Made by a program: the position numbers and the translations under genes. A model generated the notes under the pieces. That model was not told where the DNA came from. It was given only the letters and a program-made list of their open reading frames with translations, and made no database searches. Of a DNA stretch of 64,000 nt, positions 4,411 to 13,244 are shown piece after piece (position 1 is the stretch's first letter; each line of letters starts with the position of its first letter). This DNA is from Patescibacteria group bacterium (GTDB lineage: Bacteria; Patescibacteriota; Patescibacteriia; 2-01-FULL-39-33). The stretch is from NCBI GenBank assembly GCA_041671305.1, contig JBAZBX010000001.1, positions 40,821 through 104,820 on the forward strand, written 5' to 3'.

Positions 4411-4737
4411 ATGGCTTGTCTCATAGCACCAGCAACCGTGGCAGTAATTACTACGGTCGTCAGAAAAAAAATTCCCGCGAAGTACCACATTGAATGGCTC
4501 AATACCATGCTTTGGGGCGGAGTGATCATGCTGATAATTGATCATGTCATCAGCGGTGAAATTGTATTCTATCCCCCATTTCTGACAGCTATGCGAAGTC
4601 CTGCTGATACTATTGTCATGCTCAAAGAGATAGCTACTACGGGCGTAGCCATGACCATCGCGATTTTTCTATCCTGGACAGTGATGATCTTGATTGCAAA
4701 TAGAACTGAAAAGCTAAAACTAAAAAAATCAATTTAA
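4411..4737 (+). CDS. Small hypothetical membrane protein
   Basis: 108 aa with two or three hydrophobic helices. Confidence 0.35.
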   Translation: MACLIAPATVAVITTVVRKKIPAKYHIEWLNTMLWGGVIMLIIDHVISGEIVFYPPFLTAMRSPADTIVMLKEIATTGVAMTIAIFLSWTVMILIANRTEKLKLKKSI

Positions 4738-5270: not shown

Positions 5271-6725
5271 TTAAACTTTATTCAGATCCAAATATTCGTC
5301 AATTCTAATCTGTTTGACAAAATCAGGCATGTGACTGACCAGAATCATCGCGCCCTCAAAATCATTAATTGCCTTAGCAATAACCGGAATATGCCGGAAA
5401 TTAATATGATTAGTCGGCTCATCCAGCACCAATAATCCCGGCCGCATCAGAACCAATCTGGCAAAGGACAAGAGTCCCTTTTGCCCCTCAGACAAACTCC
5501 CCACAGTATGATCCATTAACTCTCCGGTAATAAGTAATCCTGCCGCCGTAGATCTCATTTCCTGCTCCGTAATATCATCATCCAGGATAGCGCTCTTGAG
5601 AGAATTAAAAACAGTCTCATCAAAATTGAGCTGAGAGAAATCCTGACTATAATATCCAATTCTGACGCCTTCAGTAATAGTAGCGCCTTCAGCCTTGCCA
5701 GCCACAAGAAAACGCAAAAACGTGCTTTTGCCAATACCGTTGGGACCGGTTACTAGCAGATGCGTCTTCTTGCGAAGCACCACGTCCACATCTTTGAGCA
5801 ATGGCAAATGATTATAAAAAGACAAAACTGATTTGATCGTCACAACCTCGGTCTTAATATTTTGTTCAGGAATGGTAAAATTTCTAATGGTTTTGTCTTC
5901 TCGTCTGACATCCACAATATTGTCTTCTTGCTCTTCAATTTCATCTCTGAGTTTCTTGGCTAATTTTCTCATCTTACCACCTTTATTGGCAAAAAAATTA
6001 ACTTTTTCTTTGCGATCTCTGATTAATTTTTCCGCGCGGGCATTTTCCATCTGTTCTCTCTCAATCCTTTTGGAAATTTCTTCCACCACTGAGTAATAAT
6101 CGCCCACATAAGCCTCAATCTTGTGAGTAAAGACGTCTAAGTATATGACTCCTTCCGTAAAACAATTAAGAAAATCAGCGTCATGGGAAATTACTATAAC
6201 CGTCTTCTCGTACATCACCAGAAAAGTAATCAAGTGATCAATGCCGTCAGAATCAAGATTATTGGTCGGCTCATCAAGCAACAAAATATCCGGATCCTGA
6301 ATCAAAGCATAAGCCAAAAGTAACCTGGCCTGCTGTCCACCGCTCATATCCCCCACTTTCCTCTCCAAAGGCATATTCAAATTAACCGCTTCCAAAACCT
6401 TGCTAATCCTGCTTTTGAGATTGCCCGGAACCATAGTAAACGCCTTGGCAAAATATTTTTCCACGGTCAACTCCAAATCATCTCTATCCATAGTCTGTCT
6501 AGCCGTACCAATGGTGGCGTCGTTGGTGATAGAAATTCTCCCCTTTTGCGGTTTAATTTTTCCCTGGATGAGATTAAAAATCGTGCTTTTACCGGCACCA
6601 TTTTGGCCCATCAAAGTAATTTTCGCGCCCTTGCGCACACTGAAACTAGCCTCTTCCAAAAGAGGTTTTTTGTATGCGTATTCAAATGAAACTTCATCAA
6701 AACGAAGTATTACTTCTTCGGCCAT
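5271..6725 (-). CDS. ABC-F family ATPase (tandem ABC domains, no TMD; translation-associated)
   Basis: Two Walker A motifs (GQNGAGKST, GPNGIGKST) and two ABC signatures (LSGGQQARL, LSEGQKGLL). Confidence 0.85.
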   Translation of the reverse strand: MAEEVILRFDEVSFEYAYKKPLLEEASFSVRKGAKITLMGQNGAGKSTIFNLIQGKIKPQKGRISITNDATIGTARQTMDRDDLELTVEKYFAKAFTMVPGNLKSRISKVLEAVNLNMPLERKVGDMSGGQQARLLLAYALIQDPDILLLDEPTNNLDSDGIDHLITFLVMYEKTVIVISHDADFLNCFTEGVIYLDVFTHKIEAYVGDYYSVVEEISKRIEREQMENARAEKLIRDRKEKVNFFANKGGKMRKLAKKLRDEIEEQEDNIVDVRREDKTIRNFTIPEQNIKTEVVTIKSVLSFYNHLPLLKDVDVVLRKKTHLLVTGPNGIGKSTFLRFLVAGKAEGATITEGVRIGYYSQDFSQLNFDETVFNSLKSAILDDDITEQEMRSTAAGLLITGELMDHTVGSLSEGQKGLLSFARLVLMRPGLLVLDEPTNHINFRHIPVIAKAINDFEGAMILVSHMPDFVKQIRIDEYLDLNKV

Positions 6726-6879
6726 AATTTATATTATAAAAACCCAAGGATCTTCTTAGGTTTGTCTCTGCATTACTGCAGTATAATAGCATATTTTATA
6801 TAATCTTGCAACCACAAATCCCTGAAGCCCTAGAATACGCTTAAAATTTAATTTCAAAAATAGCGTAAAAAAAAGAGGG

Positions 6880-7320
6880 CCCGACGCGATGATCTTGGAG
6901 GGTGATCGCGTCGGGCGGGAGTTGGGACTCCGAGGGGGTTAGGTACACGACAAATTGACAATAGCGAGGGGGTGCTGGAAGAGGGTGTTCCTCTCGCCAT
7001 TACACAACTCGTCGTGCAAAAAAACTTTTTTGGAGGAAGGTGGACCGAAAAACAGCAATCACTCCCTTTTCATGCTAGTCGTCACATCACGCGCATTGTA
7101 CACAAAAAATGACTAGCATGTCACCGAATCGGTGATGTGGCGGGTGTTGTACACCACAGGATGATTCAACTAAATTCCGTCCACCTTCCTCACTACATAT
7201 ATGGCCGCCCTTATCATCAATCAACCGTTCCAACCGTTCGTGTTTCACAGACATAAGGGTCGAGCCAAGCCTCTTGGGATGAGGCATTTGGGGCTAAAGA
7301 AAGAACGACTCTAAAACAAT
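6880..7320. ncRNA. GC-rich, highly structured, apparently non-coding segment (candidate structured RNA of unknown class)
   Basis: About 55% GC in an AT-rich genome with almost no ORF. Hairpin 6883-6918. Long-range 13-bp helix GGAGGAAGGTGGAC (7031-7044) / GTCCACCTTCCTC (7178-7190). Crossing helices 7071-7079/7110-7118 and 7082-7089/7131-7138 form a pseudoknot. Confidence 0.3.
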
Positions 7321-7774
7321 TACATTATATTAAAATTAGATATAAAAGTCAAGATTTATACAACAAAATCTTTTTATTTCATTTTAAAAGCTAATTTAGA
7401 AGGTTAATTAGGCCAGCTATATCAAATTAACGATTAGTGTGCTAAGATTAAACTCTAATTAAGAACCTACGGGGAAATGGTCGTGACCACGTATTAAGTC
7501 CAGAAATGGATACTACTAGATACCAAATACCATGACAGAAGATACAACAGAAGAAACAACAGAGGAAACTCCTGAAGTTGCTACAGAAGAAAAAACAACA
7601 GAGGAAGCCGCTTCATAGACAATGAAAACGAAGCAAAAAAAGAAAAAATCCCCACTAAACTAGTGAGGCTTTTTTCTTTTGGGTAGAGAACTGGCTGAGT
7701 GAAACAAAATTTTCAAATTTTTGAGTGAGCCAAATTTGGGCTGGACTTCGGCGCTAAGCGCCGGAAATTCCGAA

Positions 7775-7892
7775 TGGCTGGGTGTTTATGAACAAATCCG
7801 AACCGAATTTAAACAAAAATCATGATCGGGCGGGCGGAATCCCCCCCAAACCCCTCCTTCCGCCCGACCTAAACATCTGGACGGCTGAGGCG
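7775..7892. repeat. 118-bp inverted repeat, left copy (IR-L)
   Basis: 100% identical to the reverse complement of 9326..9443. Contains an internal TCGGGCGG...CCGCCCGA hairpin. Confidence 0.9.
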
Positions 7893-7904
7893 AAATAGCA
7901 ATTT

Positions 7905-8951
7905 TCAATTTTTCTTTGGCGGCGAATTTTTTTCTCCTTCTTTAACTATTTCCCTTACTTCATTGTAACTTATCTGCCTTGGCCATAATAGATTGCCGTG
8001 AGCATCATAAATTGGCAGAAGAAAATCAACCCGGTCTCCATAAATCTTTCTCATTAATGTAGCTATTTCATTTGCTTTATTTTGTTTGCTTTCATCATCA
8101 TCAACTTCTTTATACCTATGTATTTTTCTTAAAACTTCTTGTGGGACATATGGTTGTTTTTTATATAAATTATCCATTTCCTCCTCTGTCTGTTCTGCCA
8201 TGGCTCTTATTACAATACCCTTAAACCGGTCTGGAGCAATTCGAAAAGACAAAGCGTAGCCCTCAGAATAGTCAGGAATCCTTCTGTCTCCTTCTTCAAA
8301 ATATTCTTCTCTTTCTGATCCTGGTCTAGCATGGGCTCCGAAAGTATTACTTTTATACTGTAATTTTTCTCTTTTGCCAAGGTCATAATCCAATGCATAA
8401 TTGGCAATTTCAGTATTTTCCTTAAAATCTGCTGTATCAAAAATTATTCCCAAGGAGGTTTGGCTTGTTCCAATGGGTCTAAACCAATGGGCGTCTTCGA
8501 TTTTTCTTAAATCCCGACCAACAATATTGAAAAAAACAACGGCCCCCATTTTTTTTCTAACAGCGCTAACCCAATCTTGTTCAGGACTGTTAGGATTCAA
8601 TTTTCCTAATAAACCCTTTCGAAGTATACCGCCTAATTTAATGGTGGAATTATCATCTTCAAGTATTCTAACAGAATGAAATCCTGTCCCCGGTTTATTT
8701 ATATCTTGTATTTTTTCCATTATTCTCTCAACCACTTCAGGTAGTAGTTCGGGAGGAATAGGGATGTCGGAATTATCAATATTTTGATCTGCATTTTCCA
8801 CGTCCAAAATATCGCTTTCGACTTGATAATCATCAGGAGAAAAATCCTCACCCTTCTCAGGATATTTTTCTTTCAATTTTTCTTGTAGCCTTTGGGCTTC
8901 TTTTAGAGCGTCATCGTTGTTTAATCGACCGCTTTCAAATCTTTTTTCCAT
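7905..8951 (-). CDS. Hypothetical 348-aa protein (cargo of the IR-flanked cassette)
   Basis: Long ORF 5 nt downstream of the XRE HTH gene on the same strand. No recognizable domain. Confidence 0.55.
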   Translation of the reverse strand: MEKRFESGRLNNDDALKEAQRLQEKLKEKYPEKGEDFSPDDYQVESDILDVENADQNIDNSDIPIPPELLPEVVERIMEKIQDINKPGTGFHSVRILEDDNSTIKLGGILRKGLLGKLNPNSPEQDWVSAVRKKMGAVVFFNIVGRDLRKIEDAHWFRPIGTSQTSLGIIFDTADFKENTEIANYALDYDLGKREKLQYKSNTFGAHARPGSEREEYFEEGDRRIPDYSEGYALSFRIAPDRFKGIVIRAMAEQTEEEMDNLYKKQPYVPQEVLRKIHRYKEVDDDESKQNKANEIATLMRKIYGDRVDFLLPIYDAHGNLLWPRQISYNEVREIVKEGEKNSPPKKN

Positions 8952-8955
8952 AAAT

Positions 8956-9162
8956 TTATTTCAATAACTCCCACGCCTCCACTCCTAAAGCGTGAGCTAG
9001 TCTATTTAAATTTTCTAATGTGGGATTAACTTGACCACTCTCGACTCGACATATATAGGCGCGATCTATTTTACTAGAACGAAAAACATCGCCTTGCGTA
9101 AGACTTTTTTCCTCTCTTATTCTCTTGAAATTATACGCTAATTTTTTACTTAATTTATGCAT
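8956..9162 (-). CDS. XRE/Cro-C1-type helix-turn-helix transcriptional regulator
   Basis: LTQGDVFRSSKIDRAYICRVESGQVNPTLENLNRLAHALGV, a classic HTH_3 pattern; 68 aa. Confidence 0.75.
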   Translation of the reverse strand: MHKLSKKLAYNFKRIREEKSLTQGDVFRSSKIDRAYICRVESGQVNPTLENLNRLAHALGVEAWELLK

Positions 9163-9245
9163 AGTTATCCACAGTCATTTTAACAATTATTGTATATCTT
9201 AACAATATTGTAGTATACTACAATATGTAAGTGAAATTTTGCATT

Positions 9246-9272
9246 AAGAAAAAGAAAAAGTTTGATTCTGGC
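9246..9272. repeat. 27-bp inverted repeat IR2-a (partner 9533..9559)
   Basis: AAGAAAAAGAAAAAGTTTGATTCTGGC is the exact reverse complement of 9533-9559. Confidence 0.85.
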
Positions 9273-9302
9273 CAAAATAAAGTTCGAGCCGATTTTTTTA
9301 AT
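9273..9302. repeat. 30-bp inverted duplicate (B') of the recombinase 3' coding segment 10901..10930
   Basis: CAAAATAAAGTTCGAGCCGATTTTTTTAAT equals the reverse complement of 10901-10930. Confidence 0.85.
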
Positions 9303-9325
9303 CTGGTTCTTTGGCGGTTTTATTC

Positions 9326-9443
9326 CGCCTCAGCCGTCCAGATGTTTAGGTCGGGCGGAAGGAGGGGTTTGGGGGGGATTCCGCCCGCCCGATCATGATT
9401 TTTGTTTAAATTCGGTTCGGATTTGTTCATAAACACCCAGCCA
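9326..9443. repeat. 118-bp inverted repeat, right copy (IR-R)
   Basis: Reverse complement is identical to 7775..7892. The outer end CACCCAGCCA resembles the tRNA-Gln 3' end CCCGCAGCCA. Confidence 0.9.
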
Positions 9444-9512
9444 GTTTCGTTTTTCATTTTTTAAAACCGAATCCCAACCGTTTTTTGGCTTAAATTCAAA
9501 TTTTTTGCCTTG
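9441..9512. repeat. 72-bp inverted duplicate (A') of the tRNA-Gln 3' end plus downstream flank (10931..11002)
   Basis: The reverse complement of 10931-10999 is identical to 9444-9512, and the CCA is also shared. Confidence 0.85.
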
Positions 9513-9532
9513 GTTCCGATTACAATCGGAAC
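9513..9532. promoter_or_regulatory. 20-bp perfect dyad site GTTCCGATT-AC-AATCGGAAC (candidate recombinase crossover site or HTH operator)
   Basis: Perfect 9-bp arms around a non-palindromic AC dinucleotide, 40 bp upstream of the serine recombinase start. Confidence 0.35.
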
Positions 9533-9559
9533 GCCAGAATCAAACTTTTTCTTTTTCTT
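9533..9559. repeat. 27-bp inverted repeat IR2-b
   Basis: Reverse complement of 9246-9272. Confidence 0.85.
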
Positions 9560-9574
9560 TAATTCAATACAAAT

Positions 9575-11062
9575 ATGAAATACTTTCTTTATGCCCGCAA
9601 GTCGACAGACGAAGAGGATCGTCAAGTTCTTTCAATTGAAGCCCAGCTCGCGGAGTTGAAGGAGTTAGCCGCCAAAGAAAAATTGGAAATTGCGGACTCG
9701 CTCTGCGAGTCCAAAACCGCCAAAGAACCAGGCCGAAAAATTTTCGGCGGAATGCTCGCTCGGATTGAAAAAGGTGAGGCCGACGGAATTTTAGCGTGGC
9801 ACCCAGATAGATTGGCCAGAAATAGCGTTGATGGTGGAAAAATTATCTACATGGTGGATATCGGCCAGATCAAAACGCTAAAATTCCCGACTTTTTGGTT
9901 TGAGAATACTCCGCAAGGGAAATTCATGCTCAATATCGCTTTCGGCCAAAGCAAATACTATGTTGATAATTTAAGCGAAAATGTTAAACGTGGTTTCAGG
10001 CAAAAGTTAAGGCGCGGCGAATATCCCAATAAAGCGCCCATCGGCTATCTTAACGACCGAACAGCTAAAACCGTGCTCATTGATCCTCTGCGCGCCAAGC
10101 TCGTGATAAAGATGTTTAAGATGTACAACACGGGAGAATTTTCGCTTAAATTTCTTAAAGATAAGTTTTGCGATATTGGCCTGACCAGCAAGCGCGGCAA
10201 AATCCTGACTGTCGGCATGATTTCTAACATATTGAATAATCCCTTTTATTGCGGAGTATTCAAGTTTAATGGCGAAATCTACCAAGGCAAGTACGAGCCA
10301 ATTATTTCCAAGAAGCTTTTTGATGAAGTTCAGGCGGTAATGAAAAACCGAGGACGGCCGCTCGGGCAAGACAAACACGATTATGCTTTTACTGGACTTA
10401 TGAAATGCAAGTGCGGCGCCTGCATTACCGCCGAACGGCAAAAAGGCCATATCTATTATCGCTGTACGAAAAAGCTTGGAGCCTGCGACGAAAAGTATAT
10501 CCGCGAAGAAAAACTGCTGGAGCAATTCCATGGCCTTTTTCAAAAAGTTTCTTTGCCAGATGACTGGATTGACAAGATGCTCGCTAAACTCGATGAGGAA
10601 CAAAAAAGCGACATGAAGTCATCGGTAGGTCTGATTGACGAGGTAAAAACGCAAATAGGAGCCATAGAGAGCAAGCTAGATAAGTTGCTCGATGATCGAT
10701 TAGAAGGATTACTCGATAAGGACGACTATTTGCGGAAGAAGGAACAACTCATCAATCAGAAAATTGCTTTTGAGGAGAAAATCCAGTCAATCAGGCAAAC
10801 GGGAAATAATTGGCTCGAACCGATGCGGGAATTCCTTTCCGCCAATAAACAAACCAAAAAAGTCGCCAATAGCGGCGACATTCTGGAAATCCGAGCATTC
10901 ATTAAAAAAATCGGCTCGAACTTTATTTTGCAAGGCAAAAAATTTGAATTTAAGCCAAAAAACGGTTGGGATTCGGTTTTAAAAAATGAAAAACGAAACT
11001 GGCTGCGGGACCTGGAGTCGAACCAAGATAACAGCTTTCAGAGAGCTGCGTCCTACCATTAG
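9575..11062 (+). CDS. Large serine recombinase (resolvase/invertase catalytic domain, recombinase domain and zinc-ribbon)
   Basis: YARKST catalytic-serine motif near the N-terminus; CKCGACITAERQKGHIYYRC zinc ribbon; 495 aa. The last ~20 codons are antisense to tRNA-Gln. Confidence 0.9.
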   Translation: MKYFLYARKSTDEEDRQVLSIEAQLAELKELAAKEKLEIADSLCESKTAKEPGRKIFGGMLARIEKGEADGILAWHPDRLARNSVDGGKIIYMVDIGQIKTLKFPTFWFENTPQGKFMLNIAFGQSKYYVDNLSENVKRGFRQKLRRGEYPNKAPIGYLNDRTAKTVLIDPLRAKLVIKMFKMYNTGEFSLKFLKDKFCDIGLTSKRGKILTVGMISNILNNPFYCGVFKFNGEIYQGKYEPIISKKLFDEVQAVMKNRGRPLGQDKHDYAFTGLMKCKCGACITAERQKGHIYYRCTKKLGACDEKYIREEKLLEQFHGLFQKVSLPDDWIDKMLAKLDEEQKSDMKSSVGLIDEVKTQIGAIESKLDKLLDDRLEGLLDKDDYLRKKEQLINQKIAFEEKIQSIRQTGNNWLEPMREFLSANKQTKKVANSGDILEIRAFIKKIGSNFILQGKKFEFKPKNGWDSVLKNEKRNWLRDLESNQDNSFQRAASYH

Positions 11063-11073
11063 ACGATCCCGCA
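11000..11073 (-). tRNA. tRNA-Gln (anticodon CUG)
   Basis: Manual fold gives U1-A72 acceptor pair, U8, D-stem GTCT/GGAC, anticodon loop CTCTGAA with U33 and A37, T-loop TTCGACT, discriminator G and an encoded CCA. Confidence 0.8.
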
Positions 11074-11098
11074 TTATATTAATTCATTAATCTTCTTT

Positions 11099-11353
11099 TT
11101 AAATATGCTCTTCCAAAACCAGTCTTAAGCTGTTTTTCCCTTTCAATTCAATAGCGTTTTGTTTACTTAAACACGCCTCATAATATACCAACTCGAGTGG
11201 TTGCCTTTCCTTTGTTGAATTTACTTGTCCACTATTATGCAAATAAATCCTTTTTCTTAAATCTTGAGTAAATCCAATATAATATCTTTCATCCGCCAAA
11301 CTCTTTAACACATAAGTGTAATAAAATTGCATATATCTATTAAACCTATCCAT
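11099..11353 (-). CDS. GIY-YIG nuclease-family protein (UPF0213-like)
   Basis: YYTYVLKS...YYIGFTQDLRKRIYLHNSG...LVYYE. The longest ORF extends to 11404 through a GC-rich palindromic stretch, so the start is uncertain. Confidence 0.65.
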   Translation of the reverse strand: MDRFNRYMQFYYTYVLKSLADERYYIGFTQDLRKRIYLHNSGQVNSTKERQPLELVYYEACLSKQNAIELKGKNSLRLVLEEHI

Positions 11354-11477
11354 TGGACGACCCGCCTGCAACGCTTTGCGTAGCAATGCGGGCAGGTCCC
11401 GCAAAATAATTTAATCCAAAAAAGCACTATAGTGCTTTCTATAAATTAACAAAAAATAGCAAAAAAATCAAGTGAGA

Positions 11478-13244
11478 TTAGAACATCCCTATCACATCAG
11501 CCACAACATCTGTAGGCACCGATGGTTTGGTTACTACAACATCAGCTTCAGCTTTGGATTTAAACATGGCAGGATCCGCACCAAATACTGGGCGATCCAC
11601 TTTCTCTTTCAACTCCGGAATAACCAAATCCTCCTGAACCACTCCTCTAATGCTTACTGGCGCCGATATGGCCTCAGATATCACATCCTCAACCACCTTG
11701 CGATTACTCGCGCATTCCAGCCTATCTTTGTAAAACTGGCTTTTGACGGCAATTTCCAAAACATTATCCTTGGCGCTAAGCGGCTGACTAATCCTAAGTA
11801 AAGATGACAAAGTAAAATTTTTCTCAAACAACTTTTCAGAAATCTGCACCCAATTTTCTTTTACTTTATTTAAATCTATCGGGGTTTTTGTTTTTTGTTT
11901 GTTTTCGTCATCTGACATCTTAATTTCTGAAACCTCTTCCATAATCTCATCTTCTTTCTTTAATTCTTCCGCCACTTCCTCAACCTTAGTCTTTTCAATC
12001 TTCTCAGCTTCTTGAATCCGATTTAAATTTTGAATTTTCTCCTTAGCTTTATCAAAAACCTCTTTTGGAGGTGTAGGCTCAGCACACTTGGCATCTTCTC
12101 TCATAACTACTCCCCTGCCAGTACTAGCCGGATTAATATCTCTATTCTCACACACTACATTTTTATCAAATTGAATAACCGCCATCTCCAAAGGAAATTG
12201 CACGATAGTGGCGCTTTTTAATTCTTGAGCTTTTTCCATGAACAATTCAATAATGGAAATTAATTTTTCATAAGTAAATACTTCTGCTAATTTTTCAGCA
12301 GACTTCTGACTATCTTCATCAAGCTCAATACCAAAGTCATTCAAATTATAATTAACCTTGAGAAGCAAAATCTTTCTGAGAAATTCTATAAGTCCATCTG
12401 CAAAAACCTGTAAATCCACACCGTCTTCCACTAATTTATTTATCAATTCAATAGCGGCAGTTGGATTTTTCTCACCCAAAAAACTCAAAAAGTCAGTGAT
12501 GCTTTTGAAATCCGTACGAGGCAGAACCAATTCCGCCGAATCCATATCTATATCATCGCCGAGAGTAAGAATTTTTCCCAAAAGACTTTCGGCATCACGA
12601 ACGCAACCCTCACTGTGTGTCACAATATTTTTGAGTACATCTTCTGTTACTTTTTTACCTTCTGATTTTACTACCAATTTGAGCAAATCAAGCATTTCTG
12701 CCATGGAAACTTTTTTGAAATCAAATCTTTGGCAACGAGAAATAATAGTCTGTGGCAGCTTGTGCGTTTCTGTAGTGCAGAGAATGAATATCACGTGAGC
12801 CGGCGGCTCTTCCAATGTCTTGAGCAAGGCATTAAAAGCCGCCGTAGAAAGCATGTGTACCTCATCAATAATAAATACCTTGTATTTGCTTTTGGTGGGT
12901 GTAAATCTGGCATTCTCAATAATATTTTCTCTGACATTATCCACACCGGTATGAGATGCCGCATCAATCTCAATCGTATCCACAGAACTGCTATTTATCA
13001 CATCCAAGCACGAAGAACACTCATTGCATGGCTCGCTCTCCCCTTCTTTGCGATTTTCGCAGTTTATCGCCTTGGCAAAAAGCCTAGCCGAAGTCGTCTT
13101 GCCCAAGCCTCTTGGCCCGCAAAAAAGATAAGCATGGCCGATTTCGCCAAGCTCTATTTCATTTTGCAAAGTGATTTTGATGTGATTTTGGCCAATCAAA
13201 TCTTTGAAAGTCTGAGGCCTGTATTTACGATATAATGCGGACAT
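11478..13244 (-). CDS. dnaX: DNA polymerase III subunit gamma/tau
   Basis: GPRGLGKTT Walker A, clamp-loader box motifs and a CxxC zinc module; 588 aa. Confidence 0.9.
   Translation of the reverse strand: MSALYRKYRPQTFKDLIGQNHIKITLQNEIELGEIGHAYLFCGPRGLGKTTSARLFAKAINCENRKEGESEPCNECSSCLDVINSSSVDTIEIDAASHTGVDNVRENIIENARFTPTKSKYKVFIIDEVHMLSTAAFNALLKTLEEPPAHVIFILCTTETHKLPQTIISRCQRFDFKKVSMAEMLDLLKLVVKSEGKKVTEDVLKNIVTHSEGCVRDAESLLGKILTLGDDIDMDSAELVLPRTDFKSITDFLSFLGEKNPTAAIELINKLVEDGVDLQVFADGLIEFLRKILLLKVNYNLNDFGIELDEDSQKSAEKLAEVFTYEKLISIIELFMEKAQELKSATIVQFPLEMAVIQFDKNVVCENRDINPASTGRGVVMREDAKCAEPTPPKEVFDKAKEKIQNLNRIQEAEKIEKTKVEEVAEELKKEDEIMEEVSEIKMSDDENKQKTKTPIDLNKVKENWVQISEKLFEKNFTLSSLLRISQPLSAKDNVLEIAVKSQFYKDRLECASNRKVVEDVISEAISAPVSIRGVVQEDLVIPELKEKVDRPVFGADPAMFKSKAEADVVVTKPSVPTDVVADVIGMF

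What the first reader, a model, noticed from the sequence alone, without database searches (positions are those of the whole stretch)
9246..11005. Nested and order-swapped inverted duplications tie the recombinase 3' end and tRNA-Gln flank to the right inverted repeat
Three repeat relationships were seen here. (1) 9246-9272 and 9533-9559 are exact 27-bp inverted repeats bracketing the right 118-bp repeat. (2) 9273-9302 is the reverse complement of 10901-10930, which lies inside the recombinase C-terminal coding region. (3) 9441-9512 is the reverse complement of 10931-11002, which is the tRNA-Gln CCA end plus 69 bp of flank. In the recombinase/tRNA copy these two blocks are contiguous. Near the right repeat they appear in swapped order and are split by the 118-bp repeat plus 23 bp. 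The outer end of the right repeat (CACCCAGCCA) also mimics the tRNA 3' end (CCCGCAGCCA). This looks like the footprint of repeated site-specific recombination events, for example att-site duplication, inversion, or a circular junction, rather than a single insertion.
Basis: seen in the sequence. Interest (0 to 1): 0.8.

Follow-up and report, generated by a model that had tools for sequence, protein, structure and literature searches.

The report
Self-inverting recombinase element at tRNA
The odd repeats belong to a 3.2-kb mobile element inserted at the end of a tRNA gene; its recombinase gene and its cargo genes are each bracketed by inverted repeats that stay identical and let them flip, a layout shared by many related elements across bacterial phyla that I could not find described.

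Summary
All three repeat relationships are real and exact, and far beyond chance. They are not a local scar. Window 7775-11005 is an integrative element driven by a large serine recombinase (LSR) whose ORF reads across the crossover point into tRNA-Gln. The "69-bp flank" is really the recombinase C-terminal coding region. The 123-nt repeat L/R' is a tRNA-3'-end mimic. R'+y' is an internal, inverted copy of the junction that excision would create (Y|L). Two more repeats were missed: g1 (9303-9321 = rc 9713-9731) and h (7898-7926 ~ rc 9665-9693). They flank a hairpin inside the recombinase gene whose stem covaries at synonymous sites.

In 156 related loci (recombinases 46-92% identical, at least 15 tRNA species), 87 of 100 informative loci carry the y'/Y repeat. 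Thirty-eight carry the order-swapped layout. Arms stay about 99% identical within a genome while diverging between genomes, which is concerted evolution. Flipped isomers exist. L099 and L100 are 100% identical except that the recombinase segment is inverted. L007 and L086 show each arc flipped.

The best reading is a two-module, flip-flopping LSR element. The role of the four short repeats is unresolved. I found no published description.

The parts
7715..7774 (+). Y*: degenerate recombinase C-terminal / P-arm remnant forming the left flank of the element (B arm of attL in this lineage)
   Evidence: Translates as KFLSEPNLGWTSALSAGNSEW, matching family consensus KFxF..GW...W. Window 7728-7774 is 91% identical to the Y variable part of L005. 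In most other loci the flank is not Y-like.
7775..7897 (+). L: left 123-nt repeat. Its outer 6 nt (TGGCTG) are the shared core. It then carries a tRNA T-loop/acceptor mimic and a GC-rich hairpin. Inferred P' arm of the att site and left end of the element.
   Evidence: Inverted repeat with 9321-9443 at 99%. The outer end abuts different DNA in L165/L166. No Rfam family matches.
7898..7926 (+). h: inverted copy of recombinase codons 31-40 (h', 9665-9693), directly abutting the inner end of L
   Evidence: 27/29 complementary. The equivalent repeat (17-38 nt, mostly 100%) is found in 23 type-A loci.
7905..9162 (-). Cargo: 348-aa protein of unknown family (7905-8951) and 68-aa XRE-type HTH protein (8956-9162)
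   Evidence: ORFs. Pfam HTH_3 for the small protein and no family for the 348-aa protein. L005 and L084 carry different cargo between the same boundaries. Cargo is hypervariable across the family.
9246..9272 (+). a: inverted copy of a' (9533-9559)
   Evidence: 27 nt at 100%. Present in 29 type-A loci. The sequence differs between lineages but matches within each.
9273..9302 (+). x': inverted copy of X (recombinase codons 443-452)
   Evidence: 30 nt at 100%. Present in 36 type-A loci at the same relative position.
9303..9321 (+). g1: inverted copy of g1' (recombinase codons 47-52), abutting the inner end of R'
   Evidence: Exact 19 nt. Present in 34 type-A loci.
9321..9443 (+). R': right 123-nt repeat. 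A tRNA-3'-end mimic ending ...CACCCAGCCA, with a GC hairpin followed by a T-run.
   Evidence: The 3' end copies the last nucleotides of the target tRNA in every lineage. The mismatch rate is lowest in the core-proximal half.
9438..9512 (+). y': inverted copy of Y. Together with R' it forms S2, an internal inverted copy of the Y|L (attP-like) junction.
   Evidence: 75 nt at 100%. Also 100% within L001, L002, L004 and L005 although the sequence differs between genomes.
9513..9532 (+). g2: 20-nt perfect palindrome between y' and a'
   Evidence: Read directly from the sequence. Among close relatives it is replaced by unrelated palindromes or is absent.
9533..9559 (+). a': partner of a, ending 16 nt upstream of the recombinase start codon
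9575..11062 (+). Large serine recombinase gene (495 aa); the ORF runs into tRNA-Gln on the opposite strand
   Evidence: Pfam Resolvase + Recombinase + Zn_ribbon_recom. The family alignment shows C-termini that translate the reverse complement of various tRNAs.
9665..9693 (+). h': partner of h, inside recombinase codons 31-40
9694..9712 (+). N2: hairpin GGACTCGC-TCT-GCGAGTCC inside recombinase codons 41-46, bounded exactly by h' and g1'
   Evidence: 42 of 48 distinct family versions are fully paired. Third-codon-position covariation: C:G 36, T:A 10, mismatch 2.
9713..9731 (+). g1': partner of g1
10901..10930 (+). X: recombinase codons 443-452 (IKKIGSNFIL), partner of x'
10931..11005 (+). Y: recombinase codons 453-477 plus the last 6 nt of tRNA-Gln. 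Inferred P arm plus crossover core of attR (S3).
   Evidence: In 47 of 80 tabulated tRNA-adjacent loci the arm ends exactly 6 nt inside the tRNA.
11000..11073 (-). tRNA-Gln(CTG), the integration target
   Evidence: ARAGORN. Rfam tRNA at 58 bits. A promoter-like site lies at 11102-11073 on the minus strand.

Best explanation
Window 7775-11005 is a 3.2-kb integrative element of a large, widespread family driven by a distinct clade of large serine recombinases (LSRs). These elements insert at the 3' end of tRNA genes.

Site model. Each recombination site is a Y-type arm (the last ~70 bp of the recombinase gene) joined to a tRNA-type arm, either the real tRNA or the mimic L/R'. The join is a core that I infer lies at about tRNA positions 71-72. 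The integrated element carries three such sites in alternating orientation:
- S1 at 7775: flank|L.
- S2 at 9438-9443: R'|y', the inverted copy of the junction an excised circle would have.
- S3 at 11000: Y|tRNA-Gln.

Consequences. The cargo module (7898-9320) is bracketed by the L/R' inverted repeats, and the recombinase module (9513-10930) by y'/Y. Each module can flip without changing any site sequence. S1 x S3 would excise both modules as a circle with two inverted att copies (a 192-nt inverted repeat and arcs of 1418 and 1423 bp). Frequent pairing and recombination between the arms keeps them identical.

Shown: the element boundaries, the family-wide architecture, concerted evolution of the arms, natural isomers with either module inverted, and stronger conservation next to the core.

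Inferred: that the LSR rather than homologous recombination performs the flips, the exact crossover position, that a circular form exists, and that flipping places the recombinase gene directly downstream of the tRNA promoter and so acts as an ON/OFF switch.

The four short repeats (a, x', g1, h) are conserved, identity-maintained inverted copies of four segments of the recombinase region. With the hairpins g2 and N2 they lie at the two places where three repeat pairs meet (a|x', X|Y, y'-g2-a'; and L|h, h'-N2-g1', g1|R'). They look like the gutted, circularly permuted remains of a second recombinase copy into which cargo is inserted. Their present function is not established. My best guess is that they are identity-dependent recombination or pairing sites that couple the cargo module to the recombinase gene.
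For: Recombinase identity:
- LSR domains are present.
- The ORF reads into tRNA-Gln.
- Homolog C-termini translate the reverse complement of different tRNAs.

Target and boundaries:
- 102 of 132 loci with enough sequence after the match have a convergent abutting tRNA, from 15 tRNA species.
- Some apparent exceptions are tRNAs split by a group I intron.
- The repeat arm ends 6 nt inside the tRNA in 47 of 80 tabulated loci, and R' copies the target's terminal nucleotides.
- The DNA left of L is generally not Y-like.
- L+h abut different DNA in L165/L166.
- L164 has a tRNA-Gln without an element.

Family-wide architecture:
- 87 of 100 informative loci have the y'/Y repeat, 45 of them at 100%.
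- 38 loci have the order-swapped type-A layout, and 14 show all six repeat pairs.

Concerted evolution:
- Y versus y' is 75/75 within genomes and 53-74/75 between genomes.
- Pooled arm divergence is 0.5-1.6%.
- There is no G:U strand bias among mismatches.
- Mismatch rates are lowest next to the core.

Natural isomers:
- L099 and L100 are 100% identical with the recombinase segment inverted relative to tRNA-Asn plus 6.4 kb of flank.
- L007 has the tRNA upstream and Y-L-g1'-X as direct repeats downstream of the recombinase, which is the predicted arc-1 flip product.
- L086 has X, a' and h' as direct repeats, which is the arc-2 flip product.
- 47 of 156 contigs break less than 450 nt upstream of the recombinase.

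Other:
- The N2 hairpin covaries at synonymous sites.
- Cargo replacement boundaries coincide with the end of h and the start of a.
Against: - No read-level data exist for this genome, so inversion here is inferred from relatives.
- No circular form was recovered.
- Canonical LSRs recombine only attP x attB without an accessory factor. A flip between Y|L and Y|tRNA is not a canonical pairing, and RecA-type recombination across 75-160 nt could equally produce the isomers.
- A crossover at the core would swap whole arms without homogenising them, so some homologous process must act as well.
- Isolated 17-30-nt repeats are too short for efficient RecA-mediated gene conversion, yet they are as uniform as the long ones. 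This model does not explain that.
- A simple sigma-70 consensus scan found no promoter between R' and the recombinase start, and nothing is known about expression.
Confidence: 0.7

Rival explanations
1. Inactive fossil. A one-off complex rearrangement (for example template-switch repair that stitched short inverted copies of nearby sequence together) occurred at this locus and is now decaying.
For: The patchwork of 19-30-nt inverted copies joined without microhomology (a|x'|g1) resembles templated-insertion repair. Such an event may well explain the ancient ORIGIN of the layout.
Against: The same layout with the same boundaries occurs in 38 loci with recombinases 50-91% identical to this one. 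The arms stay ~99% identical while lineages diverge. Flipped isomers exist.
Confidence: 0.03
2. Assembly artefact: chimeric joining of reads from alternative orientations, or from circular and integrated forms.
For: Many contigs of the family break at the repeats (47 of 156 end less than 450 nt upstream of the recombinase), which shows that assemblers struggle here.
Against: An identical architecture appears in many independent assemblies made with different pipelines, including 0.58-1.8 Mb contigs and a record titled 'complete genome' (CP174360.1 = L038; L021, L055). It is also present in close relatives L005 and L084.
Confidence: 0.02
3. Two separate TIR-bounded transposon-like units rather than one integrative element. 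The first is a recombinase unit (y'...Y) that behaves like an insertion sequence with long terminal inverted repeats. The second is a non-autonomous cargo unit (L...R'). Each inserts next to the other's ends, and the 'att sites' are simply their abutted termini.
For: Each unit is bracketed by its own perfect inverted repeats. Cargo units differ between elements that share the same recombinase unit. The recombinase unit is found in both orientations. L150 and L157 show the recombinase unit between two different L-type sequences.
Against: Among the 156 loci examined the recombinase unit was not found free of a tRNA or tRNA-mimic partner. Sites always pair one Y-type arm with one tRNA-type arm. 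Recombination between inverted sites cannot excise a unit.
Confidence: 0.15
4. The short repeats (a, x', g1, and perhaps y' and h) act at the RNA level. One version is a plus-strand transcript through a-x'-g1 that ends at the R' hairpin/T-run and is antisense to the recombinase 5' leader, codons 47-52 and codons 443-452. The other version is a long recombinase leader that folds back on its own mRNA. Either would set recombinase expression.
For: a, x' and g1 are contiguous (76 nt) and are followed inside R' by a GC hairpin and a T-run in many lineages. A promoter-like site lies at 9180-9209 on the plus strand. a/a' covaries between lineages. The N2 hairpin covaries. Single-strand folding of 9246-9575 is far more stable than shuffles (z = -8).
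Against: Arm mismatches show no G:U-tolerant strand bias (57 versus 46, and about a third are transversions). Homology between close relatives begins exactly at a, so any promoter would lie in non-conserved cargo DNA. The six pairings are mutually crossing and cannot all form in one strand.
Confidence: 0.2
5. A host-domesticated phase-variation switch. The recombinase only flips the cargo and its own gene to vary expression, and the locus is no longer mobile.
For: State 1 (recombinase convergent with the tRNA) predominates: 102 loci against 6 with the tRNA upstream. Orientation isomers exist.
Against: Close relatives of the recombinase sit at the same tRNA in different host contexts and with different cargo. 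The family is spread over many phyla and at least 15 tRNA species. The syntenic relative L164 lacks the element.
Confidence: 0.07

Closest known systems
Large-serine-recombinase integrative elements (phage integrases phiC31, Bxb1 and A118; SCCmec CcrA/B; XisF; TnpX of Tn4451)
   Same: Same enzyme class and domain order: resolvase catalytic domain, recombinase domain, zinc ribbon. The element is bounded by hybrid sites without long direct repeats. A small element carries cargo.
   Different: Only weak similarity to CcrB, XisF and CcrA models, far below their cut-offs, and no full-length PDB relative. The target is the extreme 3' end of tRNA genes; the Islander database paper's abstract attributes tRNA/tmRNA-gene integration to tyrosine integrases (PMC4383910, seen). 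The P arm lies in the recombinase's own C-terminal codons and the ORF reads into the tRNA. The element carries an internal inverted copy of its own att junction plus four further inverted copies of recombinase segments. I know of none of these features in the named systems (own knowledge).
Hin-type invertible segment (Salmonella H segment; Gin/Cin/Pin relatives)
   Same: A serine recombinase gene lies inside a segment bracketed by inverted recombination sites and can invert together with it. In Hin and Gin a cis-acting element (the enhancer) lies inside the 5' coding region of the recombinase gene (own knowledge). The conserved N2 hairpin region at codons 31-52 is a loose analogue.
   Different: Hin and Gin are ~190-aa small serine recombinases with 26-bp sites and a Fis-dependent enhancer. 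Here the enzyme is a 495-aa LSR, the repeats are 75-160 nt and overlap its C-terminal codons, one site is a tRNA gene end, and the unit is part of a mobile element.
Yeast 2-micron plasmid and plastid genomes (two large inverted repeats splitting a circle into two flip-flopping arcs, with copy correction)
   Same: The predicted circular form would have a 192-nt inverted repeat separating arcs of 1418 and 1423 bp, with the recombinase gene in one arc and its target inside the repeat. Repeat copies are kept identical, as in those systems.
   Different: FLP is a tyrosine recombinase. No circular form, origin or replication gene was seen here. The element is integrated at a tRNA.
Tycheposons and other tRNA-targeting cargo-carrying integrative elements
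   Same: Small elements with hypervariable cargo that sit next to tRNA genes, with the integrase gene proximal to the tRNA. In that study 910 of 937 elements encode a tyrosine recombinase and the remainder a large serine recombinase (10.1101/2020.12.28.424599).
   Different: Tycheposons are overwhelmingly tyrosine-recombinase elements. That paper's single 'inverted repeat' hit is a reference-list entry, and it describes no internal inverted att copy.
Shufflons and other multiple-inversion systems (R64 Rci)
   Same: Several interleaved inverted-repeat pairs in one short region next to a recombinase gene.
   Different: Shufflon repeats are copies of one site for a tyrosine recombinase and shuffle protein C-termini. 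Here the six pairs have six unrelated sequences, and four of them are copies of recombinase-gene segments.

Membership tests
Large serine recombinase (LSR) integrative element | N-terminal resolvase-type catalytic domain with the serine nucleophile | tested here: met
   PF00239 at 3.6e-19. YARKST motif with S10 invariant in a 20-sequence alignment.
Large serine recombinase (LSR) integrative element | Recombinase domain plus zinc-ribbon domain (with coiled-coil insert) C-terminal to the catalytic domain | tested here: met
   PF07508 at 2.4e-13 and PF13408 at 3.6e-07. The coiled coil was not examined separately.
Large serine recombinase (LSR) integrative element | Element bounded by hybrid attL/attR sites that share only a short core, next to an intact target | tested here: met
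   L and the tRNA share 6 nt (TGGCTG). The same rule holds in 47 of 80 tabulated loci. L's outer flank varies between relatives.
Large serine recombinase (LSR) integrative element | Conservative crossover at a 2-bp central dinucleotide; attP x attB unidirectional; excision needs a directionality factor | not testable with these tools
   The crossover is inferred at about tRNA positions 71-72 from where identity ends. There is no biochemical data and no directionality factor was identified.
Large serine recombinase (LSR) integrative element | Existence of an empty target site and/or a circular form | tested here: inconclusive
   L164 (related host) has tRNA-Gln with no element, but it is followed by ~33 nt of Y-arm-like sequence, so it is either an empty site or a scar. 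No circular contig was found, and only 2 relatives occur in IMG/VR.
Hin/Gin-type DNA invertase system | Small (~190 aa) serine recombinase with a C-terminal helix-turn-helix domain | tested here: not met
   495-aa LSR architecture.
Hin/Gin-type DNA invertase system | Segment bracketed by inverted recombination sites that is found in both orientations | tested here: met
   y'/Y bracket the recombinase gene. The L099/L100 isomers, L007 and L086 show both orientations. This was shown in relatives, not in this genome.
tRNA-gene genomic island of the tyrosine-integrase type | Tyrosine recombinase; direct repeat of the tRNA 3' portion (tens of nt) at the distal end | tested here: not met
   The recombinase is serine-type. 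Only 6 nt are shared in direct orientation, and the long repeats are inverted.
2-micron-like flip-flop circle | Autonomous circular replicon with two inverted repeats containing the recombinase target | tested here: inconclusive
   The geometry fits: a 192-nt repeat with arcs of 1418 and 1423 bp, derived. No circle or replication function was observed.
Shufflon | Multiple copies of one recombination site, in both orientations, recognised by one (tyrosine) recombinase | tested here: not met
   The six repeat pairs have unrelated sequences.

The most novel reading that the evidence does not exclude
The six mutually interleaved inverted-repeat pairs and the two junction hairpins form a functional, identity-dependent device. 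The non-coding copies (a, x', g1, h) pair with, or recombine with, their counterparts in the recombinase gene. This reversibly splits, silences or re-routes the recombinase and separates the composite into a recombinase circle and a cargo circle, each carrying an att site. On this reading the family is a new kind of modular, cassette-exchanging LSR mobile system that uses tRNA mimicry to retarget among tRNA species.
Probability: 0.2. Interest if true: 0.9.

Novelty: new variant of a known kind. Interest (0 to 1): 0.75.

Why it matters
- It identifies a very abundant LSR family. Protein searches were capped at ~8000 scored candidates and DNA scans at 600 matched stretches, across Patescibacteria and several other phyla. 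The family targets the last nucleotides of many different tRNA genes, a niche usually credited to tyrosine integrases.
- Target choice appears to be encoded partly in a short tRNA-mimic (L/R') that changes with the target. That is of interest for retargetable serine integrases as genome-engineering tools.
- A recombinase that sits inside its own invertible cassette, next to a strong tRNA promoter, would be a simple self-regulating mobility switch.
- The perfectly maintained 17-30-nt inverted copies of recombinase-gene segments are too short for ordinary gene conversion. They pose a clear, testable question about identity-dependent DNA or RNA interactions in mobile elements.
- In practice, these repeats are a frequent cause of contig breaks in candidate-phyla-radiation genomes.

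Tried and rejected
- X|Y and a|g2 as serine-recombinase crossover points: rejected. The junctions share no core dinucleotide in the window and only 0-1 nt in other loci.
- The 240-bp block x'-g1-R'-y' as a minicircle integrated through its att core: rejected. The block is opened between X and Y, not between Y and L.
- L/R' as a tRNA or a known RNA: ARAGORN and Rfam find nothing. Only the 3' ~35 nt are conserved, as a T-loop/acceptor mimic.
- A palindromic core dinucleotide that would allow both inversion and deletion: not general. The inferred cores are CA, CC, GC, CT and GT, depending on the tRNA.
- RNA-level pairing as the reason for arm identity: no G:U strand bias.
- A single planar secondary structure using all six pairings: impossible, because the three helix groups cross each other.
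- Recombinase remnants in 6730-7715: only the Y* remnant at 7715-7780 was found.
- A Y-like flank left of L as a family rule: not found.
- An empty site via ABC-F neighbours: synteny is not conserved. Only L164 was informative.
- Circular forms in IMG/VR: none.
- Literature: five full-text searches found no description of this architecture.
- A step-by-step evolutionary path from the simple 'type B' layout to the swapped 'type A' layout could not be reconstructed.


Full report
OBSERVATION

The three repeat relationships are present as described:
- a/a': 9246-9272 / 9533-9559, 27 nt, 100%.
- x'/X: 9273-9302 / 10901-10930, 30 nt, 100%.
- y'/Y: 9438-9512 / 10931-11005, 75 nt, 100%.
- L/R': 7775-7897 / 9321-9443, 123 nt, 99%.

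X and Y are contiguous. Their copies are in swapped order and separated by 135 nt. The longest exact inverted repeat in 6000-12000 is 118 nt, against a maximum of 18 in 100 dinucleotide shuffles. tRNA-Gln(CTG) occupies 11000-11073 on the minus strand.

- The 69 bp next to the tRNA are recombinase codons. The 495-aa ORF (9575-11062) reads into the tRNA.
- 9513-9532 (g2) is a perfect palindrome.
- g1, 9303-9321, is the exact reverse complement of 9713-9731.
- h, 7898-7926, matches the reverse complement of 9665-9693 in 27 of 29 positions.

The partners h' and g1' flank, to the base, a 19-nt hairpin (N2, 9694-9712) inside recombinase codons 41-46.

WHAT THE LOCUS IS

The ORF is a large serine recombinase with Resolvase, Recombinase and Zn_ribbon_recom domains. 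It is only distantly related to characterised ones: CcrB, XisF and CcrA models score far below their cut-offs, and only an N-terminal PDB match exists. In a 20-sequence alignment the protein is conserved through ...KNIGSNFILKGKKFxF..GW. About 10 variable residues follow, then a W that corresponds to the CCA end. After that the C-termini are simply the translated reverse complement of whichever tRNA lies downstream. The whole family therefore sits convergent on a tRNA 3' end, and X and most of Y are element DNA.

I collected 156 non-redundant related loci from genomes and metagenomes. Of the 132 with enough sequence after the match, 102 have an abutting convergent tRNA, drawn from 15 tRNA species. 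Some apparent exceptions are tRNAs split by a group I intron.

The identity between the upstream copy and the tRNA side ends 6 nt inside the tRNA in 47 of 80 tabulated tRNA-adjacent loci, and 4 nt inside when CCA is not encoded. The 3' end of R' always copies the last nucleotides of that lineage's target tRNA and is preceded by a T-loop-like GTTCGRA motif. I infer a crossover at about tRNA positions 71-72, with L/R' serving as the tRNA-mimicking arm of the element's att site.

The DNA left of L is generally unrelated to Y. L+h abut different DNA in relatives L165/L166. A related host (L164) has tRNA-Gln without an element. The element is therefore 7775-11005.

In this lineage the left flank (7715-7774) is a degenerate Y-type remnant that resembles the Y of relative L005. 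This suggests integration next to the scar of an earlier occupant.

R'+y' is the reverse complement of Y+L. It is an internal, inverted copy (S2) of the junction an excised circle would carry.

THE ARCHITECTURE IS A FAMILY DESIGN, NOT A LOCAL SCAR

Of 100 loci with enough flanking sequence, 87 have the y'/Y repeat (40-160 nt). In 45 it is 100% identical and in 69 at least 98%.

Two layouts exist:
- Type B has a single long repeat. Its inner end falls in the GGCT|CGAAC of the IGSN codons. A small hairpin follows, then a 13-nt continuation in unswapped order.
- Type A occurs in 38 loci, with recombinases 50-91% identical to this one. X - Y) | tRNA. All six repeat pairs were detected in 14 of these loci.

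Written as blocks alpha = a'..h', beta = g1'..X and I = Y-L, the predicted circle reads alpha beta I alpha^ beta^ I^. Every block has an inverted partner in the same order, so all three pairs interleave. Equivalently, the cargo arc is a gutted, circularly permuted copy of the recombinase arc. Cargo replaces the leader plus the first 30 codons, the gene body is deleted, and the permutation point is exactly N2.

Repeat pairs meet three at a time at two places: a|x', X|Y and y'-g2-a'; and L|h, h'-N2-g1' and g1|R'.

N2 is under nucleic-acid-level selection. Of 48 distinct versions, 42 are fully paired. Third-codon positions covary: C:G 36, T:A 10, mismatched 2. In contrast, g2 is replaced by unrelated palindromes or is absent among close relatives.

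CONCERTED EVOLUTION

In the window's clade, Y versus y' is 75/75 in four genomes and 74/75 in a fifth, while Y differs between genomes at 1-22 of 75 positions.

Pooled over the family, arm divergence is:
- Y: 1.2%
- L/R': 1.6%
- X: 1.5%
- a: 0.5%
- g1: 0.6%
- h: 0.8%

Mismatches show no G:U-compatible strand bias (57 versus 46), and about a third are transversions. This points to identity maintained at the DNA level rather than to wobble-tolerant RNA pairing. Mismatch rates are lowest next to the core: 0.3-0.8% there, against 2-4% distally. That is what functional half-sites in both copies would produce.

ALTERNATIVE ARRANGEMENTS EXIST

- L099 and L100 come from different samples and are 100% identical over 6440 + 1562 nt. 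The recombinase segment is inverted relative to tRNA-Asn and its flank, and the switch region is the 129-nt repeat.
- L007, L028, L070 and L131 have the tRNA upstream of the recombinase on the same strand.
- L007, a type-A element, shows Y-L-g1'-X as direct repeats downstream of the recombinase. This is exactly the predicted product of flipping the recombinase arc.
- L086 shows X, a' and h' as direct repeats with the cargo between a' and h'. This is the product of flipping the cargo arc.
- 47 of 156 contigs end less than 450 nt upstream of the recombinase.
- In the contigs checked (L004, L008, L011, L014, L032, L034) the break lies about 85-126 nt left of y', in or at R', as expected for a repeat or a polymorphic junction.

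CARGO

The window carries an XRE-type HTH protein and a 348-aa protein with no family match. Relatives carry, among others, a methylase plus an Mrr nuclease, a multicopper oxidase and an FAD-binding protein. Almost every cargo protein is a singleton. Between the window, L005 and L084 (~90% identical elements) the cargo is replaced exactly between the end of h and the start of a.

MECHANISM

Best supported: a two-module LSR element with three equivalent sites (Y-type arm + core + tRNA-type arm) in alternating orientation. Inversion of either module regenerates the same site sequences. S1 x S3 would release a circle with a 192-nt inverted repeat and arcs of 1418 and 1423 bp.

Inferred only:
- Whether the LSR or homologous recombination performs the flips.
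- That flipping places the recombinase directly downstream of the tRNA gene, so that the tRNA promoter (promoter-like site at 11102-11073) would read tRNA -> y' -> g2 -> a' -> recombinase. The predominant orientation (102 versus 6 loci) would then be the quiet state.

Not explained: the function, and the unusually faithful maintenance, of the isolated 17-30-nt repeats. Ordinary gene conversion should be inefficient at that length. Candidate roles are identity-dependent recombination sites that reversibly split the recombinase gene or separate a cargo circle from a recombinase circle, or RNA-level regulation. Neither is demonstrated.

COMPARISON AND NOVELTY

The enzyme and the integration logic place the element among LSR integrative elements. 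The invertible recombinase cassette resembles the Hin segment. The predicted circle resembles the 2-micron plasmid in geometry. [quoted passage not shown]

The following features appeared in none of the five literature searches, and I know of no description:
- tRNA-3'-end targeting by an LSR whose own C-terminal codons form one site arm.
- A tRNA mimic as the other arm.
- An internal inverted att copy.
- Four more inverted copies of recombinase segments meeting at covarying or variable hairpins.
- Concerted evolution of all of them.

I rate it a new variant of a known kind, of high interest.

Noticed in passing
window 6860-7300: A GC-rich, repeat-containing non-coding stretch lies between the ABC-F gene and the element. 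It includes a 17-nt inverted repeat at 7033-7049/7175-7191. Segment 6910-6940 resembles the GC hairpin of L/R' (71%). It may be debris of older elements at this tRNA hot spot. No Rfam family matches.
   Followed up: partly
window 7533-7680: A tiny acidic ORF with T-E-E repeats (direct repeats at 7531-7606) is followed by a terminator-like hairpin at 7638-7680. There is only a weak sub-threshold Rfam 'Thr_leader' match (26.6 bits; gathering score 55).
   Followed up: no
window 11099-11404: A 101-aa GIY-YIG domain gene sits immediately beyond tRNA-Gln. The corresponding interval in the syntenic relative L004 is ~125 bp shorter and shows no homology, so this may be an independent small mobile insertion.
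   Followed up: partly
L003:165-2762: An 865-aa recombinase homolog in which an in-frame ~1.1-kb insertion splits the recombinase sequence. A 56-nt inverted repeat (1-56/1584-1639) links the contig start to the insertion end. It could be a nested insertion or an intein-like element inside the recombinase gene.
   Followed up: no
L038:7460-7750 (also L040, L083, L094, L098, L114, L124): The recombinase abuts tRNA-like 3' ends that ARAGORN does not call. In L038 a group I intron (RF00028, 69 bits) interrupts the tRNA, so this element family also targets intron-containing tRNA genes.
   Followed up: partly
R' region of L021 and L068 versus window 9347-9392: The loop of the conserved GC-rich hairpin inside R' (GGGCGGGCGG...CCGCCCGCCC) is present in the opposite orientation in L021 and L068. 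It looks as if the ~22-nt loop had flipped between the stem arms.
   Followed up: no
L164:1-130: In a related host the tRNA-Gln gene lacks an encoded CCA and is followed by ~33 nt resembling the start of y' (TTTTAAAACCGAAT motif), then by ordinary host genes. It is either the natural attB arm or the scar of a lost element.
   Followed up: partly
L013:1-51 and L013 near 4586-4636: A 51-nt direct copy of Y, 100% identical, lies ~260 nt to the left of L. It is a second example, besides the window's Y*, of a Y-type arm on the far side of the cargo module.
   Followed up: no
window 9176-9191: A perfect 16-nt palindrome, TTGTAGTATACTACAA, lies in the 83 nt between a and the start of the HTH gene. 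It overlaps promoter-like sites on both strands and is a likely operator for the HTH protein.
   Followed up: no
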